Below, piece by piece: positions 7,058 to 23,800 of a stretch of DNA of 56,397 nt. Every line of letters begins with the position of its first letter. The stretch's first letter is position 1. This DNA comes from Thermoanaerobaculia bacterium (lineage in GTDB: Bacteria > Acidobacteriota > Thermoanaerobaculia > UBA5066): NCBI GenBank assembly GCA_038319835.1, contig JBBQDQ010000005.1:1-56397 (forward strand). The letters run 5' to 3'. The notes under the pieces were generated by a model, which worked only from the letters and a program-made list of their open reading frames with translations, did not search any database and was not told the DNA's origin. The position numbers and the translations under genes were made by a program.

Positions 7058-7855
7058 ATGGCAAGTCGCTCGTGGGCCCTCGTCCTCGGGGCCTCTTCCG
7101 GATTCGGGGAGGGCGCGTCCCTCGCGCTCGCCCGCGCGGGGAGGAACGTGTTCGGCGTCCACCTCGACCGCAAGGCGACCCAGCCCAACGTCGACCGCAT
7201 CACGGCGGAGATCGCAGCCGCCGGGGCGCGGCCGGTCTACTTCAACATGAACGCCGCGGACGACGCGAATCGGACCGGGGCGATCGCCGAGATGGGGAAG
7301 GTCCTCGACGCCGAGGGCCACCGGGCCGGGATCGATGTCGTCCTCCACTCCCTCGCGTTCGGGACGCTCAAGCCGTTCCTGACGGAGAGCCCGGCGGACC
7401 GGATCAACCGCACGCAGATGGACATGACGCTCGACGTCATGGCCCACTCGCTCGTCTACTGGGTGCAGGACCTCCTCTCGGCCGGCCTCATGGCCGAGGG
7501 CGGGCACGTCTTCGCGATGACGTCCTCGGGCGGCCACCGGATCTGGCAGTCCTACGGCGCCGTCTCCGCCGCCAAAGCGGCCCTCGAGAGCCACTGCCGC
7601 CAGCTCGCCGTCGAGCTCGTGACCCGCAAGATCGCCGTCAACGCGATTCGCGCTGGCGTCACGGACACCCCCGCGCTGCGCAAGATCCCGGGCAACGCCG
7701 GAATGATCGAGCGCTGCCTCGCGATTCATCCCGCCGGCCGTCTCACGACCCCGGCGGACGTCGCGAACGTGATCGTCGCGCTCTCGCGGCCCGACACGGT
7801 CTGGCTGACGGGCAACGTGCTCGGCGTCGACGGCACGGAAGACGTGATCGGCTGA
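7058..7855 (+). CDS. SDR oxidoreductase, FabL/FabI-like enoyl-ACP reductase
   Basis: GASSGFG, YGAVSAAKAALE, VNAIRAGVTDTPAL. Confidence 0.85.
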   Translation: MASRSWALVLGASSGFGEGASLALARAGRNVFGVHLDRKATQPNVDRITAEIAAAGARPVYFNMNAADDANRTGAIAEMGKVLDAEGHRAGIDVVLHSLAFGTLKPFLTESPADRINRTQMDMTLDVMAHSLVYWVQDLLSAGLMAEGGHVFAMTSSGGHRIWQSYGAVSAAKAALESHCRQLAVELVTRKIAVNAIRAGVTDTPALRKIPGNAGMIERCLAIHPAGRLTTPADVANVIVALSRPDTVWLTGNVLGVDGTEDVIG

Positions 7856-7863
7856 GGCCGGCG

Positions 7864-8685
7864 ATGAAGAACGCGCGTCTCCTGTCCACGGCCGCCTGCG
7901 CGACGCTGTCGCTCGCGCTCATGGGGGCTTCCTGCGAGACCGTGCACCCGAAGGTGAAGGCGCAGTCGGACGTCCCGTCGGCCGGGAAGTTCCCACATGG
8001 GATCTTCGGCCGCTTCCTCGAAAAGGTCGTCCAGGACGGCCTCGTGGACTACGCGACGGCGTCCCTCGAGGCGTCGACCCTCGAGGAGTACCTCGCCGAG
8101 GTCGCGCGCGTCTCGCCCGACTCGCATCCGCACCTCTTTCCGACGGAGCCCGACCGGCTCGCGTACTGGATCAACGCCCACAACGCCTGCGCGATCCGCG
8201 GCGTCCTGAGGTTCAACCGGCCTCCCACCTTCAAGGACATCGACCACCGCTTCGACTCCGACACGAAGTACGTCCTGGGCGGGCACGACCTGTCGCTCAA
8301 CCAGATCGCGGCAATCGCCTACCGGAAGTTCACGGACGCGCGCGTGCACTTCGCTCTCGTGAGGGCGCGCCGCGGCGGGCCGCCGCTCGCGAAGGACCCC
8401 TGGGACGCGGCGGACCTCGAAGACCGGCTCGAGGCGGCCGCGAAGGCGTTCGTTGCCGACCCGCGCCACATCGACTGGAAGGCCCCCTCGCTGAAGGCGG
8501 GCTTCTCGCGCGTCATCCTCGATTTCCGGGGCGACTTCGAGCGCGAGGTCCCGTCCACCGTGTCGGGCGACCCGCGCCTCGTCGGGTCGATCAACCGGTG
8601 GCGCGAGCGCACGGACAAGGTGAACGCGACGACGATCTACGCGATCCCGTTCGACGAGCGCCTGAACGACATTTCGAACCGATGA
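7864..8685 (+). CDS. DUF547-domain lipoprotein
   Basis: Lipobox GASC; DGLVDY, LAYWINAHNA, DARVHFAL...GPPL. Confidence 0.82.
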   Translation: MKNARLLSTAACATLSLALMGASCETVHPKVKAQSDVPSAGKFPHGIFGRFLEKVVQDGLVDYATASLEASTLEEYLAEVARVSPDSHPHLFPTEPDRLAYWINAHNACAIRGVLRFNRPPTFKDIDHRFDSDTKYVLGGHDLSLNQIAAIAYRKFTDARVHFALVRARRGGPPLAKDPWDAADLEDRLEAAAKAFVADPRHIDWKAPSLKAGFSRVILDFRGDFEREVPSTVSGDPRLVGSINRWRERTDKVNATTIYAIPFDERLNDISNR

Positions 8686-19632: not shown

Positions 19633-21312
19633 TCAGGCGGGGTCTTTCGCGAGCGCGACGATCGCCCTGCGAAGCTTGCCGTGCGCGTCGAAGAGGCGGA
19701 CGAAGTCCGACTCGCGCCGTCCGCCCTTGGCGCGGATCACCCCCGTGAGCGCGCTCTTCTGGGCAGCCGTCCAACCCGTCACCCCCGGCAGGATCGAGAC
19801 GAGCGGCGCCCAGCGGCGGAACGCGAGGCGTTCGGCGGACGTCCACCCGGCCGTCCGCGCGCCGAGGAGCCGCGCCGCCTCTGCCGTCAGGACCGACTCC
19901 GCCCTCTCGCGGTCCGAGCCGAAGCGCGCCGCGAGCATGTCCGTCACCCTGAGGCCGACGTTCGGGAGCTCGACGAGGCCGATCGCGTTGCTCCGCACCC
20001 GCCCGCCGAACCAGTAGAGGTTCTCCGAGGCGAGGACCTTCAGGTCCGCGAGCGACGTGCGGTGCTTCGGGTCGGCCGCCATCCGGCGCTCCTCCTCCTG
20101 CATGAGGGCGACCGCCCGCGGGGCGCGCGGGACGAAGCCGAGCTTGCGGTAGAACCACCAGGCTCCGGACTCGAGCGCTTCGGGGTTGCCGTAGCCGCCC
20201 AGCTGGTACGGGAAGATCGTGAAGACGTCGGACCCGAAGAGGGCCCGCGTCATCGAAAGGACCTTGCCGTAGACGAGGCCCGACTCGCCGCCCCGGAACG
20301 ACTCGAAGACGTTGTAGGCGATCTCGGAGGAGCCGAAGAGCGCGCTCGTGAGGACGTAGCCGATCGGGACGCCGTTCTTGAGCGTCAGGAACCCGTAGAC
20401 GGACTCGAGGAGGAGCCGGCGCTCGGGGACGACGCCGATCGCGGCGAAGGCGAGGCCGTCCGGGTACGTCACGAGGCGGACGTCGTTCGGGTCGCCCCAC
20501 TGGAAGGCGTCGAGATCCCGCTGGCGCGCGACCATCGCCTCCCTGGCGAGGTCGAGCCAGCGCCCCGCTTCGCGCGCGGGAACCGCCTCGATCGAGAGAG
20601 GGGGCCTCGCGCGCTCGCGGCGGACGTCGGGGCGGCCGCGGTCGAGGGGCTTCGTCTGGAAGACGACGGGCGCGGTCCTGAGACAGGCGTTCGTTCGCGC
20701 GGGCGTGCCCGCTCCGGCGTCGAGGACGAGCGGGAGCTCGAGGCTCTCCCACGCCGCCTCCCGCTCGAACGTGCCCCGGCCCAGCGTGGACAGCCTCCGG
20801 ACGAGGAAGGTGGCGTCCGTCTCCTTTGGGCCCTTCAGGCGATTCACCCAGCCGCGCGGCTTGAGGTCGAGCTCGTCGAGGGCGGGTGTTTCGGACCAGA
20901 GGGAGACGAGGGGGAGAAGGCGCTCGAGGGCAGGTCCCTTGTCGAACGCCTTCCAGTCGACGTGGAGCTTCCCGCCCCAGCGCGCCGCGAGCCAGCGCGC
21001 CGTGCCGGCGAAGAACGGGAAGCGCGTTTTCGTTCCCGCGATTCCGCTGTCTTCGAGAGCGGCGCGGTGGAGCCGGAGGTCGGGCCGCCGGGCGAAGCGC
21101 GCGAGGAGAATCTCGACCTTCGCCAGGACGGGCGCGTCGTCGGGGTAGGCGCGGAGGAAGCACAACGCCTCGTGGAGACGCTCGACCTCTTTCGCGGTCG
21201 TGAGGCGCGCGCGGGAGAGGACGTCGAGCGCGGTCCGCCGGCGGGCCACGGCGTCCTGTCCGCGGTCCGTCCGCGCCGACTCGAGGACGCGCAGGGCGTC
21301 CTTCGCCCTCAC
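19633..21312 (-). CDS. Uncharacterised ~560-aa protein with a GNAT-like C-terminal half
   Basis: GTG start overlaps the padR stop; KNGVPIGY...NVFESFRGGE...NPEALESGAWWFYRKLGF. Confidence 0.7.
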   Translation of the reverse strand: MRAKDALRVLESARTDRGQDAVARRRTALDVLSRARLTTAKEVERLHEALCFLRAYPDDAPVLAKVEILLARFARRPDLRLHRAALEDSGIAGTKTRFPFFAGTARWLAARWGGKLHVDWKAFDKGPALERLLPLVSLWSETPALDELDLKPRGWVNRLKGPKETDATFLVRRLSTLGRGTFEREAAWESLELPLVLDAGAGTPARTNACLRTAPVVFQTKPLDRGRPDVRRERARPPLSIEAVPAREAGRWLDLAREAMVARQRDLDAFQWGDPNDVRLVTYPDGLAFAAIGVVPERRLLLESVYGFLTLKNGVPIGYVLTSALFGSSEIAYNVFESFRGGESGLVYGKVLSMTRALFGSDVFTIFPYQLGGYGNPEALESGAWWFYRKLGFVPRAPRAVALMQEEERRMAADPKHRTSLADLKVLASENLYWFGGRVRSNAIGLVELPNVGLRVTDMLAARFGSDRERAESVLTAEAARLLGARTAGWTSAERLAFRRWAPLVSILPGVTGWTAAQKSALTGVIRAKGGRRESDFVRLFDAHGKLRRAIVALAKDPA

Positions 21313-21827
21313 GTGCGCGCCCTCTCGGCCGGACCGAGCGACCGGCCGGCGAGGAGCGCGGCCGACTCCGCGTCCGCCCACGCGAGCTCCGTCTCGAGGA
21401 GGACGCGCCGCCGCCGCCGTGCGGCCGTCGTGCCCGTCGCGGCGCGCTTGAGCTCGTCGGCGAGAAGGTTTCGGTACTCCTGCAGGCGCCGCACGCGGTC
21501 GGGCGGGAGGCTGCGCTCGAGAAGAGCGAGGCGGGCGAGCGTCGCGTCGTGCGGGCGCGGGAGCGAGAAGGGCTCCGCGACCCACTCCTTCAGCTCGCGT
21601 CGGCCGGACGGCGTCGCGCGGTACTCGCGCCGCGGAGGCCCCTTCGGCGAGCGCCGCCGCTTGAGCGAGACGAACCCGCCGCGCAGGAGACGCCGGAGAG
21701 AGGGATAGATCTGGGAGAGGTCCGCGTCCCAACCGCGCGCGGGATCTTCCGCGAGCCGCTGCTTGAGATCCCACCCGCTCGCGGGCGACTCGACGAGGAG
21801 CCCGAGGAGGACGTGGGAGAGGGACAT
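21309..21827 (-). CDS. PadR-family (AphA-like) transcriptional regulator
   Basis: MSLSHVLLGLL...SGWDLK...SQIYPSLRRL...GPPRREYRATPSG. Confidence 0.88.
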   Translation of the reverse strand: MSLSHVLLGLLVESPASGWDLKQRLAEDPARGWDADLSQIYPSLRRLLRGGFVSLKRRRSPKGPPRREYRATPSGRRELKEWVAEPFSLPRPHDATLARLALLERSLPPDRVRRLQEYRNLLADELKRAATGTTAARRRRRVLLETELAWADAESAALLAGRSLGPAERART

Positions 21828-21833
21828 GCGGTA

Positions 21834-21854
21834 AGTATATGACGACTCATATAC
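21834..21854 (-). promoter_or_regulatory. padR -10 element overlapped by a palindromic operator
   Basis: Perfect inverted repeat GTATATGA-cgac-TCATATAC (21835-21854); TATACT on the minus strand (21839-21834), 6 nt before the ATG. Confidence 0.7.
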
Positions 21855-21926
21855 CGCCGTGGAAAACCCGTGGAGTGCCCTGTGAATTACTGCCGTGCCC
21901 CGAGGCCAGGCGGCCGGTCTCCGGAC

Positions 21927-21955
21927 AAAAAAATAAGGGGGCTGGTGTAGCCCCC
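21927..21955 (-). terminator. Intrinsic terminator of the Lys-rich peptide transcript
   Basis: Minus-strand RNA GGGGGCU-ACACC-AGCCCCC-UUAUUUUUUU. Confidence 0.8.
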
Positions 21956-21999
21956 GAATCCCGGAAATACCTTGATTGGAATGGTTTGAAGTAACTAAG

Positions 22000-22062
22000 T
22001 TACTTCTTGCCCTTCTTCGCCTTCTTCGTGGTCTTCTTCGCAGCTTTCTTCTTGGCCGGCAT
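22000..22062 (-). CDS. 20-aa Lys-rich peptide MPAKKKAAKKTTKKAKKGKK (below the ORF-track cutoff)
   Basis: ATG at 22062, TAA at 22002-22000; SD GAGGAGGTGA (22080-22071) 8 nt upstream; own promoter and terminator. Confidence 0.8.
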   Translation of the reverse strand: MPAKKKAAKKTTKKAKKGKK

Positions 22063-22094
22063 GGTTTCTGTCACCTCCTCACTGGCAGGTTTCG

Positions 22095-22124
22095 TTGACA
22101 GTGCCGGAAGCTGCGTGCTAGGTT
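22095..22124 (+). promoter_or_regulatory. Putative antisense sigma70 promoter
   Basis: TTGACA (22095-22100), 18-nt spacer, TGc-TAGGTT extended -10 (22116-22124). Confidence 0.45.
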
Positions 22125-22234
22125 GTCCGCCCCTCGAAGGACGGGGACTAGCGCTCTTCCGGATTCTGTCGACTGCCTTGATTCAAGTCTCGCGACTCTA
22201 AGCGTCGATAGATTTCAAAAGATCTGGTTCCCGT

Positions 22235-22280
22235 GGGACGGCATCGTGAGTCACGATCACGGCGCCGTCCCTTTTTTCTT
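22235..22280 (+). terminator. Hairpin plus T-tract; possible terminator of an antisense RNA
   Basis: GGGACGGC-ATCGTGAGTCACGAT-cacggc-GCCGTCCC followed by TTTTTTCTT. Confidence 0.5.
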
Positions 22281-22290
22281 CCTGTAACGA

Positions 22291-22330
22291 ATTGTATAGA
22301 GGCCATACGGCGCGAATCAAGAATTTTTTT
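22291..22330 (-). promoter_or_regulatory. Sigma70-like promoter with A-rich UP element driving the leader and peptide
   Basis: Minus strand: AAAAAAATTC-TTGATT (22320-22315), 18-nt spacer, TACAAT (22296-22291). Confidence 0.65.
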
Positions 22331-22432
22331 CTTGACGAGCGAAGATTTTTTCACCCGTCGTTCCCGTCCCTTCGGACGACCGCGCGCACATCCGGGCTAG
22401 GATCGCGCGTGGAGAAAAATCCGGAGCCTCAC

Positions 22433-23281
22433 ATGACAGACGCACTCGTGCTCGCTCACTCGCCCGACTCCGACGACGCGTTCATGTTCTACGGACTGCG
22501 CGCGAACGCGGTGGACACCGAGGGCGTCACCTACACGCATACGCTCGCCGACATCGAAACGCTCAACCGCCGCGCGTTGGCGGGAGAGCTCGCGATCACG
22601 GCCGTGTCCTTCCACGCGTACGCGTATCTCGCGGACCGTTACGTGCTCCTCCCGCACGGTGCCTCGTTCGGCGACGGGTACGGCCCGTGCGTCGTCGCGC
22701 GTAAGGACGGCGGGCCGCGCACGCTCGCGGACCTCAGCGGCCGGCGGGTCGCGATCCCGGGCGTCCTGACGTCCGCCGCGATGTCGCTCGCGCTCTACAC
22801 GCAGGGCGTGACGCCCGTCGTGATGGCGTTCGACCGCGTCGGCGACGCCGTGAACGCCGGCGAGGTGGACGCGGGCGTCGTGATCCACGAGGGCCAGCTC
22901 ACATGGAAGGAAGAGGGGTTCCACCTCGTCGCCGATCTCGGCGTCGTCTGGAAGGACGAGACCGGCCTCCCGCTCCCCCTCGGCGGCAACGCGGTCCGCC
23001 GCGACCTCGGGCCGGAGCTGATCGCCCGCGTCTCTCGCGCCCTCGGCCGCTCGATCGTCTACGCCCTCGACCACCGTGAGGACGCCCTCACGGACGCGAT
23101 GCGCTTCGCCCGCGGCCTCCCGCGCGAGAAGGCGGACCGTTTCGTGGGGATGTACGTGAACGACTGGACGCGCTCCTACGGGCCGAAGGGCCGCGAGGCG
23201 GTCCGACTCTTCCTGAGGCGCGGTTTCGAGGCCGGGATCCTCCCGAAGCTCGTCGAGCCGGAGTGGGTGGCGGAGGACTGA
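22433..23281 (+). CDS. mqnD: 1,4-dihydroxy-6-naphthoate synthase (futalosine menaquinone pathway)
   Basis: AHSPDSDDAFMFY, GDGYGP, AGVVIHEG, LPLPLGG, MYVN. Confidence 0.88.
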   Translation: MTDALVLAHSPDSDDAFMFYGLRANAVDTEGVTYTHTLADIETLNRRALAGELAITAVSFHAYAYLADRYVLLPHGASFGDGYGPCVVARKDGGPRTLADLSGRRVAIPGVLTSAAMSLALYTQGVTPVVMAFDRVGDAVNAGEVDAGVVIHEGQLTWKEEGFHLVADLGVVWKDETGLPLPLGGNAVRRDLGPELIARVSRALGRSIVYALDHREDALTDAMRFARGLPREKADRFVGMYVNDWTRSYGPKGREAVRLFLRRGFEAGILPKLVEPEWVAED

Positions 23282-23299
23282 GGGCGTGACGGGTGTGAT

Positions 23300-23800
23300 G
23301 TGAAGACGGGAACGCGGGCGCTCGCGGGGGGATTCCTGTTCCTGGCCGCGCTCTGGTGCGGGATGCTCGCCTTCTTCGGAGCGTTCGGGGCCCGGGTCGT
23401 CCTCGAGACGTCGCCGAGCCGCCACGCGGCGGGCGCCGTGAACAAGGTCCTCCTCGACGTCCTCGACGCGGCGTCTCTCGGCGCGGTCCTCGTGCTCGGC
23501 GTCCTTCTCGTCCTCTGGAACCGGGTGCGGCCCTGGACGGCGCGCGCCCGTGGCTACGCGGTCCGCTTCCTGGCCGTGGCCGCGGTCGCGGCTGTCGCGT
23601 CGCTCTTCGTCGTGACGCCCGAGATGATGGAGCGGCGCGCGCGGATGGGCCCGATCGACCTCGTCTCCAAGGAGGATCCCCTGCGCAAGGCCTGGGGGCG
23701 GCTGCACGGCGTCTCGTCGCTGACGCTCCTCGTCAGGCTCCTCGCCTCGGCGGGCGTCTTCGCGGCGGGGTTCGCGCAGCTCCCGAAGGGCGACGCCTGA
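23300..23800 (+). CDS. DUF4149-like membrane protein
   Basis: Four hydrophobic helices; AWGRLHGVSS. Confidence 0.75.
   Translation: MKTGTRALAGGFLFLAALWCGMLAFFGAFGARVVLETSPSRHAAGAVNKVLLDVLDAASLGAVLVLGVLLVLWNRVRPWTARARGYAVRFLAVAAVAAVASLFVVTPEMMERRARMGPIDLVSKEDPLRKAWGRLHGVSSLTLLVRLLASAGVFAAGFAQLPKGDA

What the first reader, a model, noticed from the sequence alone, without database searches (positions are those of the whole stretch)
21927..22330. Self-contained transcription unit for a 20-aa Lys-rich peptide
Seen on the minus strand in order: A-rich UP element with TTGATT-N18-TACAAT, about 220 nt of leader, SD GAGGAGGTGA (the strongest I noticed in the window), MPAKKKAAKKTTKKAKKGKK (11 of 20 Lys, no acidic or aromatic residues), and a clean intrinsic terminator. 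Standard gene callers would miss it. Known analogues of tiny basic proteins are histone-H1-like PAKK/AKK nucleoid proteins and small ribosome-bound peptides (bTHX, bS22, eL41), but it matches none I recognise. Inference: a highly expressed nucleic-acid- or polyphosphate-binding microprotein under post-transcriptional control.
Basis: partly seen in the sequence, partly recalled or inferred. Interest (0 to 1): 0.85.

Follow-up and report, generated by a model that had tools for sequence, protein, structure and literature searches.

The report
Unannotated 20-residue lysine-rich microprotein gene
A tiny stand-alone gene for a 20-residue, lysine-packed peptide, with its own promoter, a folded 220-base leader and a terminator, is conserved in almost every genome of its bacterial order and look-alikes occur in several other phyla, yet no annotation lists it.

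Summary
On the minus strand lie a promoter (22320-22291), a ~220-nt leader, SD GAGGAGGTGA (22080-22071), ORF MPAKKKAAKKTTKKAKKGKK (22062-22000) and an intrinsic terminator (21955-21927). The organism is a Thermoanaerobaculia (Acidobacteriota) MAG, going by the record titles of same-genus hits. The whole unit is 76-93% identical in 22 of 24 same-genus genomes. A loose SD+ORF pattern finds it once per genome in 27 of 29 sampled genomes of the order, against 1 of 91 in the rest of the class and 0 for a reversed control. Coding is supported: Lys codons change only AAG/AAA, Ser switches AGC/TCG, length changes come in threes, and the stop is conserved. The leader folds into a conserved four-helix rod that ends at the SD, and no Rfam family matches it. 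Contigs from four metatranscriptome studies cover the unit. An exact-pattern scan of one genome per species gave 120 loci, of which 118 are ORFs of 13-26 codons. About 38 carry non-Acidobacteriota labels (Limnocylindria, Eisenbacteria, Phycisphaerales and others) and have different leaders. The peptide matches no Pfam or NCBIfam family and is absent from a 15-billion-protein collection. Its function is inferred, not shown: an abundant polycation that binds RNA, ribosomes or DNA, made under translational control. No translation or binding data exist.

The parts
22321..22334 (-). A-rich tract directly upstream of the -35 hexamer (UP-element-like)
   Evidence: Read. The stretch with the -35 hexamer is invariant in 20 of 20 aligned same-genus loci. 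Calling it an UP element is inference.
22291..22320 (-). Sigma-70-type promoter: TTGATT, 18-nt spacer, TACAAT; predicted start near 22284
   Evidence: the only promoter-like site in 21500-22800 (shuffle mean 0.1). It is conserved in the genus. The other families have TTGACT-type and CACAAT/GAGAAT-type hexamers at the same relative place.
22235..22271 (-). 5'-proximal hairpin of the leader, preceded by an A-run
   Evidence: Present in the minimum-free-energy and centroid folds. The two arms differ between genus sub-clades yet stay complementary (alignment, read by eye).
22084..22177 (-). Leader core: an irregular rod of four helices. P1 is GGCAG (22177-22173) with CTGCC (22088-22084). P2 is GACAG (22170-22166) with CTGTC (22101-22097). 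Then come inner helices and the apical hairpin P4 (22146-22127). An invariant unpaired TAGCA lies at 22120-22116.
   Evidence: RNAalifold on 23 sequences of the window's family predicts P1, P2, inner helices and P4. The same architecture was set by hand on 56 sequences of the other two families. It is 99.0% paired against 36-58% when partners are slid; 4 pairs change on both sides, which 0 of 500 shuffles reach. No Rfam family matches.
22071..22080 (-). Shine-Dalgarno GAGGAGGTGA, 3 nt after the end of P1 and 8 nt before the ATG
   Evidence: This 10-mer plus a start codon occurs only 3 times in the genome. Predicted unpaired probability is 0.08 in the window's sub-clade and averages 0.30 over 85 orthologues.
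22000..22062 (-). ORF of 20 codons plus TAA: MPAKKKAAKKTTKKAKKGKK (11 Lys)
   Evidence: Substitutions are mostly at third positions, with a Ser AGC/TCG switch. Length changes are in-frame. It is a single copy. The GTG-extended 24-aa reading is not conserved, because in the other families that frame meets a stop (sequences).
21988..22006 (-). Small hairpin that contains the stop codon in its 5' arm
   Evidence: Fold. In the other families the matching hairpin (GTAAGT-loop-ACTTAC) also occurs as GTAAAT/ATTTAC (output, read by eye). It was detected by pattern in 52 of 68 distinct units.
21956..21974 (-). Conserved 3'-UTR stretch between the ORF and the terminator; may pair with the 5' part of the leader
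   Evidence: Nearly invariant in 20 of 20 same-genus loci, while ORF third positions vary. It pairs with the region around 22233-22226 in the fold. Its function is inferred.
21927..21955 (-). Intrinsic terminator: 7-pair stem, 5-nt loop, T-run
   Evidence: Conserved in the genus. 79 of 79 loci with the window-type leader have a terminator-like site within 120 nt of the stop.

Best explanation
This is a real, independently transcribed gene for a translated 20-residue polycationic microprotein. It is single-copy and near-universal in one order of Thermoanaerobaculia.

Shown:
- The unit is conserved as a whole.
- The ORF carries the marks of selection on a peptide: Lys at fixed places, small residues (A/G/S/T) as spacers, and a preserved frame and stop.
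- It has one of the strongest ribosome-binding sites of the genome.
- RNA-library contigs cover it.
- Its leader is a conserved folded RNA whose basal helix ends 3 nt before the SD.

Inferred:
- The peptide has a net charge of about +11 and no hydrophobic or acidic residue. It probably acts through charge, as a genetically encoded polycation that binds RNA, ribosomes or DNA (less likely polyphosphate).
- The leader probably sets how much is made, by stabilising the mRNA and by opening or closing the translation start region. This may respond to the peptide itself or to the cell's cation status.
- Peptides of the same kind with the same SD occur in other phyla behind unrelated leaders, so the peptide rather than the RNA is the common product.
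For: Conservation:
- The 461-nt unit matches over 420-460 nt at 76-93% identity in 19 same-genus genomes, one of which holds two copies. It is cut at contig ends in 3 more, giving 22 of 24 (alignment).
- The order's other families keep the promoter position, leader core, SD, a 19-20-aa Lys peptide, the terminator and both neighbouring genes.
- A loose pattern (GGAGGTGA, 3-9 nt, ATG and four codons) is found in 27 of 29 genomes of the order, in 1 of 91 in the rest of the class, and 0 times when read backwards in 121 genomes.

Coding:
- Variable sites by codon position are 1/2/10 in 13 distinct ORFs and 3/3/13 in 28 distinct ORFs. All Lys changes are AAG/AAA, and there is an AGC/TCG serine switch.
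- The distance from the ATG to the stop-codon hairpin is a multiple of 3 in 50 of 52 units, with four lengths among those 50.
- 118 of 120 pattern hits stop after 13-26 codons.
- The antisense frame has an SD-like site in only 3 of 128 units.

SD rarity.

RNA:
- Contigs from 4 of 4 metatranscriptome runs (4 studies) lie on 21920-22262. For example, a 300-nt contig of depth 221 covers 21974-22185 with 2 other letters.

Leader structure: (z -4.95).

Other phyla:
- About 38 of 120 loci carry non-Acidobacteriota labels and sit among unrelated neighbours.
Against: - No ribosome profiling, mass spectrometry or binding data exist, so translation and function are inferred.
- The non-coding parts of the unit are as conserved as the ORF or more so. 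Some ORF conservation may therefore be an RNA-level constraint.
- The third-position pattern fits one antisense frame equally well. Only the SD, ATG, promoter and terminator orientation decide between them.
- The patterns fix the SD and the first codons. The likeness of those parts among hits is therefore by construction.
- Such a simple peptide could arise independently, so the cross-phylum hits may not be homologues.
- The RNA evidence is contigs only. They show no strand, start, end or level, and DNA can be present in RNA libraries.
- The peptide was not found by the pattern in most other orders of the class. It is not a universal component.
Confidence: 0.55

Rival explanations
1. The peptide is specifically a stoichiometric small ribosomal protein, a lineage-specific counterpart of bTHX, bS22 or bL37. 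Its leader would then be an autoregulatory mimic of the peptide's rRNA site.
For: - It is single-copy and near-universal in the order (27 of 29), with a top-rank SD and a conserved structured leader as in ribosomal-protein operons.
- The genome shows no bS22 (PF08213) and no Thx hit above cut-off.
- There is precedent. Passages of PMC10618245 describe an unannotated bS22, 61% Lys/Arg, found in a ribosome only by cryo-EM.
Against: - It matches no ribosomal family.
- It is Lys-only, with no Arg or aromatic residue, and has variable length and spacers (13-26 aa). That looks unlike a peptide fitted to one rRNA pocket.
- It was found in 1 of 91 genomes of the other orders of the class.
- rRNA mimicry could not be tested, because no rRNA is assembled in this genome.
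Confidence: 0.15
2. The RNA is the main product: a roughly 355-nt regulatory or dual-function small RNA. Its conserved unpaired stretches (TAGCA junction, 3'-UTR block) would act on other RNAs or proteins, and the short ORF would be secondary.
For: - The leader and the 3' UTR are at least as conserved as the ORF.
- The fold is strong, with z -4.95.
- Unpaired motifs are invariant across families.
- RNA-library contigs have roughly the size of the unit.
Against: - Peptides of the same kind behind the same SD occur with entirely different leaders in other phyla.
- The ORF shows in-frame length change and a serine codon switch.
- No Rfam family matches.
- No target was sought or found.
Confidence: 0.15
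3. The ORF is a cis-acting leader peptide. Translation of its 11 Lys codons would report lysyl-tRNA or ribosome status, and control read-through of the terminator into the PadR operon downstream.
For: - A run of one amino acid's codons followed by a terminator, upstream of same-strand genes, has the outline of classical attenuators (recalled).
- The PadR gene follows in all three families of the order.
Against: - PadR has its own conserved palindrome and spacer just upstream of its start. It also has no link to lysine.
- No alternative anti-terminator pairing appeared in the folds.
- In other phyla the downstream genes are unrelated.
- The ORF lies about 45 nt from the terminator stem, with a separate hairpin between them.
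Confidence: 0.04
4. It is a type I toxin-antitoxin-like locus. A harmful basic peptide would be kept silent by a tightly folded mRNA with a hidden SD and by an antisense RNA.
For: - The leader is long and structured, the fold predicts 5'-3' pairing, and the SD is largely paired in the window's sub-clade (0.08 unpaired).
- The ORF is small and followed by a terminator.
Against: - The peptide has no hydrophobic segment.
- The locus is single-copy, in fixed synteny and near-universal in an order. Mobile, multi-copy toxin loci do not behave so.
- No antisense promoter was found in the scan.
Confidence: 0.05
5. It is a chance ORF in a conserved non-coding region, with no product of its own.
For: Purine-rich runs can stay open by chance, and the peptide is of low complexity.
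Against: - The ATG sits at a fixed distance from a perfect SD, and the stop is conserved.
- 118 of 120 pattern hits end within 26 codons, although these are G+C-rich genomes.
- The reversed-pattern control gave 0 of 401 and 0 of 121.
Confidence: 0.02

Closest known systems
Very small basic ribosomal proteins (bS22, bTHX, bL37)
   Same: They are 24-33 residues long, mostly Lys/Arg, and often missing from annotation. bS22 was found in a spirochaete ribosome only by cryo-EM, and its transcript is abundant (passages of PMC10618245).
   Different: There is no HMM match. The peptide here is shorter, Lys-only with Ala/Thr/Ser/Gly spacers, and variable in length. Ribosome binding is not shown.
Histone-H1-like Lys/Ala-rich nucleoid proteins and tails (AlgP, chlamydial Hc1/Hc2, HU tails of actinobacteria; recalled, AlgP paper seen only as a search listing)
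   Same: The composition is alike (AKK/PAKK-type repeats). They are expected to bind DNA, RNA or polyphosphate through charge.
   Different: Those are long proteins or tails on folded domains, with many tandem repeats. This is a free 20-mer with its own transcription unit and a structured leader.
Ribosomal-protein and other autoregulated mRNA leaders (recalled)
   Same: A conserved folded leader ends at the ribosome-binding site of a gene for a nucleic-acid-binding product.
   Different: No similarity to any curated leader (Rfam). Neither the regulator nor the signal is known.
Dual-function small RNAs that also encode a peptide (SgrS/SgrT, RNAIII/delta-haemolysin, SR1/SR1P; recalled)
   Same: A short stand-alone transcript has both a highly conserved structured part and a tiny ORF.
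   Different: No target pairing is known here. The same kind of peptide occurs with unrelated leaders elsewhere, which points to the peptide as the common product.

Membership tests
bS22 (Pfam PF08213 COX24_C) | Match to the family profile | tested here: not met
   No Pfam or NCBIfam family at E up to 10 for the 20-aa or the 24-aa reading. There is no PF08213 match anywhere in the genome at E up to 1.
bS22 (Pfam PF08213 COX24_C) | Bound in the 16S rRNA pocket of the small subunit | not testable with these tools
   This needs ribosome purification with cryo-EM or top-down mass spectrometry.
bTHX (Pfam PF17070) | Match to the family profile | tested here: not met
   The peptide has no hit. The only genome hit scores 16.2 bits, below the 29.7 cut-off, and lies inside a 215-aa frame elsewhere.
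Histone-H1-like Lys/Ala repeat nucleoid proteins | Lys/Ala-rich repeat composition | tested here: met
   11 Lys, 4 Ala, no acidic or aromatic residue.
Histone-H1-like Lys/Ala repeat nucleoid proteins | A long repeat array, or a tail joined to a folded domain | tested here: not met
   The ORF has 20 codons, and 118 of 120 relatives have 13-26 codons. Only two hits are longer (42 and 174 aa).
Type I toxin-antitoxin toxin | Small hydrophobic membrane-active peptide | tested here: not met
   No hydrophobic stretch.
Type I toxin-antitoxin toxin | Overlapping or nearby antisense RNA | tested here: inconclusive
   The scan found no promoter-like site on the plus strand in 21500-22800. The contigs carry no strand information.
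Attenuator leader peptide | Alternative terminator/anti-terminator pairing and a co-transcribed operon tied to the sensed amino acid | tested here: not met
   The folds show no competing anti-terminator. The downstream gene is a PadR regulator with its own conserved palindrome. Downstream genes differ in other phyla.
Any curated RNA family (Rfam 15) | Covariance-model match to leader or 3' UTR | tested here: not met
   0 matches at E up to 1 in 21000-23500. Only rRNA and tRNA reached gathering score in 18 related loci, none at the units.

The most novel reading that the evidence does not exclude
Oligo-lysine microproteins of 13-26 residues may form a widespread, wholly unannotated class of gene products in bacteria (Acidobacteriota, Chloroflexota, Eisenbacteria, Planctomycetota and others). 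They would be genetically encoded polycations that do for ribosomes, RNA or the nucleoid what polyamines and Mg2+ do. Each lineage would have evolved its own riboregulatory leader that closes the start region when polycation is plentiful. The result would be a polycation homeostat, and the four-helix rod of Thermoanaerobaculia would be a new class of cis-regulatory RNA.
Probability: 0.25. Interest if true: 0.85.

Novelty: new variant of a known kind. Interest (0 to 1): 0.72.

Why it matters
If the peptide is made, this is a conserved and probably abundant cell component that every gene caller and protein database misses. It is absent from a collection of 15 billion predicted proteins. It would also escape tryptic proteomics, because trypsin cuts it into pieces of one to four residues.

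It gives a concrete sequence to look for in unassigned density of ribosome or nucleoid structures from little-studied phyla. It is also a candidate for a peptide equivalent of polyamines.

The leader is a new conserved RNA structure with an easy read-out, translation of a 20-codon ORF. The way it controls expression is therefore directly testable.

The simple search pattern used here could be applied widely to count such genes.

Tried and rejected
- One search aligned loci that were not in one orientation. It was discarded and redone.
- Alignment A1 put the 5' strands of P1/P2 of the two leader types out of register. The grouping also failed. I therefore analysed the two types apart (A2; A3).
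- One search used a faulty grouping expression and was replaced.
- Covariance model R1, built from the other two families, did not re-find the unit in the window's own genus (0 of 26, stricter filters). It is not a sensitive detector for this leader type. It did find a variant in another genus of the family, whose 24-aa peptide begins MATKKAPKK. This shows that the exact patterns undercount.
- In the window's fold, part of the leader pairs with the start codon and codons 6-8. By eye I could not find this pairing in the other two families beyond 4-6 pairs next to the SD, so I do not claim a conserved two-state switch.
- Neighbour analysis in other phyla gave no shared context.
- rRNA mimicry by the leader could not be tested, because no rRNA is assembled in this genome.
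- Misses in the order are uninformative. In G023 the neighbouring gene is cut at a contig end. In G020 and G123 the neighbouring gene was not found either with this query.
- No cover in RNA contigs: depth was zero over 21700-21903 (PadR side) and over 22278-22311 in the four runs.
They are no evidence of habitat or expression.
- Supplementary notes of PMC10618245 (bS22 sequences) could not be seen. They might allow a direct comparison with bS22.
- Literature: five searches found no description of such a peptide. Substrings of the peptide gave one unrelated antimicrobial-peptide paper and nothing.
- Unpublished genomes: the tallies include G030 and G025. L038 (from G030) appears. It was left out of alignments A1-A3 and.

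Full report
WHAT IS THERE

The menaquinone gene (PF02621, plus strand from 22433) and the PadR gene (PF03551, minus strand from 21827) were identified.

- An A-tract lies at 22334-22321.
- The -35 TTGATT and -10 TACAAT are 18 nt apart (22320-22291). This is the only promoter-like site in 21500-22800, where shuffles give 0.1.
- A leader of about 222 nt follows.
- The SD GAGGAGGTGA is at 22080-22071.
- The ORF for MPAKKKAAKKTTKKAKKGKK runs 22062-22000.
- The terminator has a 7-pair stem and a T-run (21955-21927).

G+C drops from about 0.72-0.77 in the flanking genes to 0.52-0.58 over the unit. The genome has 70% G+C. In it, GGAGGTGA plus a start codon occurs 21 times and the full 10-mer plus a start codon 3 times. 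No other Lys-rich short ORF with an SD exists in it. Record titles of same-genus hits name Thermoanaerobaculia, Acidobacteriota.

CONSERVATION

A BLAST of the 461-nt unit against 41 relatives (G000 included) matched 33. Within the genus, 19 genomes hold it over about 420-460 nt at 76-93% identity, and one of them (G011) holds two copies. Three more hold it cut at contig ends (G004, G024, G019). G023 gave only a 34-nt Lys-codon stretch elsewhere, and G020 gave nothing.

The alignment of 20 loci shows that the promoter, a 5' hairpin, the leader core, the SD, the ORF, a 3'-UTR block and the terminator are all conserved. The spacer towards PadR is not, apart from a palindrome.

The two other families of the order carry MATKKKAAKKAKKATKKKK or MATKKKAAKKKTAKKSTKKK. 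These sit behind GGGAGGGAGGTGAC, with a promoter at the same relative place, a recognisably related leader core, a terminator and the same two neighbours.

A strict pattern found the unit in 82 of 401 genomes of the class: 16 of 18 in the genus, 51 of 58 and 4 of 4 in the sister families. The reversed control gave 0 of 401. That pattern misses variants. A covariance model found a unit in another genus of the family whose 24-aa peptide begins MATKKAPKK.

A looser pattern found the unit in 27 of 29 genomes of the order, not counting the window's own genome, which also matches. It found 1 of 91 in the rest of the class, and the control gave 0 of 121. The unit occurs once per genome.

The misses tell little. 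In G023 the neighbouring gene is cut by a contig end. In G020 and G123 that neighbour was not found either.

IS IT CODING?

- In 13 distinct 20-codon ORFs, variable sites by codon position are 1, 2 and 10. In 28 distinct 19-codon ORFs they are 3, 3 and 13.
- Every Lys codon varies only between AAG and AAA. Spacer residues vary among A, G, S and T. One Ser switches between AGC and TCG.
- The first eight codons of loci from the pattern scan are partly fixed by the pattern. The same holds in the BLAST-found genus loci and in codons 9-20, which the pattern does not fix.
- In the sister families the stop codon lies in the 5' arm of a small hairpin that can be located without reference to frame. The ATG-to-hairpin distance is a multiple of three in 50 of 52 units, with four lengths among those 50: 57, 60, 66 and 69 nt.
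- One antisense frame shares its wobble positions with the sense frame, so the position bias alone does not choose the strand. That frame has an SD-like site in 3 of 128 units, no start codon in 17, and lengths from 13 to 105 codons. The promoter and the terminator also read only on the minus strand.
- The GTG eight bases into the SD is not a conserved start. In the sister families that frame meets a stop at once (sequences).

RNA

Rfam has nothing here. The predicted 355-nt transcript folds at -130.2 kcal/mol, with z -4.95 and 0 of 100 shuffles as good.

For 56 distinct leader cores of the sister families I set four helices by hand (P1 to P4). They are 99.0% paired, against 36-58% when partners are slid by 1-3 columns. 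Four pairs change on both sides, which 0 of 500 shuffles reach, but each such change occurs in a single sequence.

The slid control is biased, because I drew the structure from the consensus. Covariation is also sparse, because the sequences are 85% identical per column.

Independently, RNAalifold on 23 sequences of the window's family predicted the same rod, with one compensatory pair (AU in 13 sequences, GC in 8).

P1 ends 3 nt before the SD. A TAGCA in the 3' strand between P4 and P3 is invariant in all 80 sequences of alignment A1.

The predicted unpaired probability of the SD is 0.08 in the window's sub-clade and averages 0.30 over 85 orthologues, below the transcript average of about 0.4. 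There the leader also pairs with the start codon. I could not show that this closed form is conserved outside the sub-clade.

EXPRESSION

Of the 22 runs listed, 20 hold part of the stretch, and 6 of those are RNA libraries. I laid four metatranscriptome runs from four studies at 85% likeness or more. All four have contigs on the unit:

- 21974-22185: a 300-nt contig of depth 221, with 2 other letters and 2 gaps
- 21962-22262
- 21920-22082
- 22053-22250
- 21960-22155

These are contigs of relatives. They show presence in RNA libraries, not strand, ends or level.

BEYOND THE ORDER

Of these, 118 are ORFs of 13-26 codons, and the other two have 42 and 174 codons.

By my count of the titles, about 82 loci are labelled Acidobacteriota or Thermoanaerobaculia and about 38 carry other labels:

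- 17 Limnocylindria/Chloroflexota (MPAKKKAAKKTAKKKAKKK and variants, behind an HTH_17 gene)
- 4 Eisenbacteria (MPAKKKAAKKKAAKKK, behind a response-regulator gene)
- 2 Phycisphaerales
- 1 Rokuibacteriota, with two tandem copies
- 4 records labelled Bipolaricaulia, Fraserbacteria or Thermotogae that share one long leader; it holds a stretch complementary to the SD region
- 2 archaeal labels, and others

Neighbouring genes are unrelated between these groups. A canonical terminator follows in 79 of 79 loci with the window-type leader, but in only 6 of 37 others by my simple test.

Because the pattern fixes the SD and the first nine residues, these hits show that such genes exist widely. They do not show that the genes are homologous.

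WHAT IT IS NOT

- No Pfam or NCBIfam family matches at E up to 10.
- Three exact look-ups failed in a 15-billion-protein collection.
- The genome has bS21 but no bS22, and no Thx hit above cut-off.
- Five literature searches found no description of such a peptide.
- Passages of PMC10618245 give the closest precedent. An unannotated bS22, 61% Lys/Arg, with an abundant transcript, was found in a ribosome by cryo-EM.

READING

I hold with about 0.85 confidence that this is a transcribed and translated microprotein gene. How the peptide works is inference.

With eleven Lys in twenty residues and nothing hydrophobic or acidic, it can hardly fold or insert into a membrane. It should bind polyanions.

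Several features fit an abundant structural or buffering polycation for RNA, ribosomes or DNA:

- a single copy in fixed synteny;
- presence in nearly all genomes of the order;
- a top-rank SD;
- a stabilising 5' hairpin with possible 5'-3' pairing.

The conserved rod at the SD fits control of translation, possibly by feedback. A stoichiometric ribosomal protein is a special case that I rate at 0.15.

The variable length and spacers, the absence of Arg, and the patchy spread in the class make me prefer a less site-specific role. The whole statement gets 0.55.

LIMITS

Supplements of papers were closed. The peptide is too short for the homology, structure, atlas and complex tools.

Noticed in passing
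window 21835-21854 (minus strand), 8 nt upstream of the PadR start at 21827: A palindrome (GTATATGA-GTCG-TCATATAC) is conserved in all aligned relatives. In the sister families it takes the form CTATATCT..GATATAG. It is probably the PadR operator/promoter, which would make the PadR operon separate from the peptide unit.
   Followed up: partly
window 19633-21312 (minus strand): The 559-aa ORF downstream of PadR has no Pfam family at E up to 0.001.
   Followed up: no
G011:C2:640129-640558 and G011:C2:177834-178258 (L009, L031): One same-genus genome holds two full copies of the unit on one 872-kb contig, 86% and 80% identical to the window. Each resembles a different sub-clade of the genus.
   Followed up: partly
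L107 (Rokuibacteriota-labelled record), about 60 nt after the first ORF: Two tandem copies of a 13-aa ORF (MAAKKKAAKKKKK), each with its own SD.
   Followed up: no
L133 (archaeon-labelled record), upstream of the peptide ORF at 7813-7875: The Lys peptide ORF directly follows a short ORF for an extremely acidic Asp/Glu-rich peptide. This may be an acid-base pair of microproteins.
   Followed up: no
L061, L083, L101, L136: Four records labelled Bipolaricaulia, Fraserbacteria or Thermotogae share a different leader of about 250 nt. About 110 nt upstream of the SD it holds a stretch complementary to the SD region, with G-U wobble in some records. This is an independent case of a hidden start region before the same kind of peptide. 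Rfam has no match there.
   Followed up: partly
window 21988-22006 and the matching place in relatives: The stop codon sits in the 5' arm of a small conserved hairpin, with paired changes between families (GTAAGT/ACTTAC and GTAAAT/ATTTAC). Its purpose is unknown.
   Followed up: partly
window 22007-22201 (plus strand): The antisense strand of the Lys ORF is open and would read as a Phe-rich hydrophobic peptide. It shares wobble positions with the sense frame, but lacks a conserved start and an SD.
   Followed up: yes
L138 (record labelled Saccharimonadales) and L046 (labelled Gammaproteobacteria): L138 has the same peptide and the same upstream context as the Limnocylindria loci, so the label or the binning may be wrong. 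In general the labels on these MAG contigs should be read with care.
   Followed up: no
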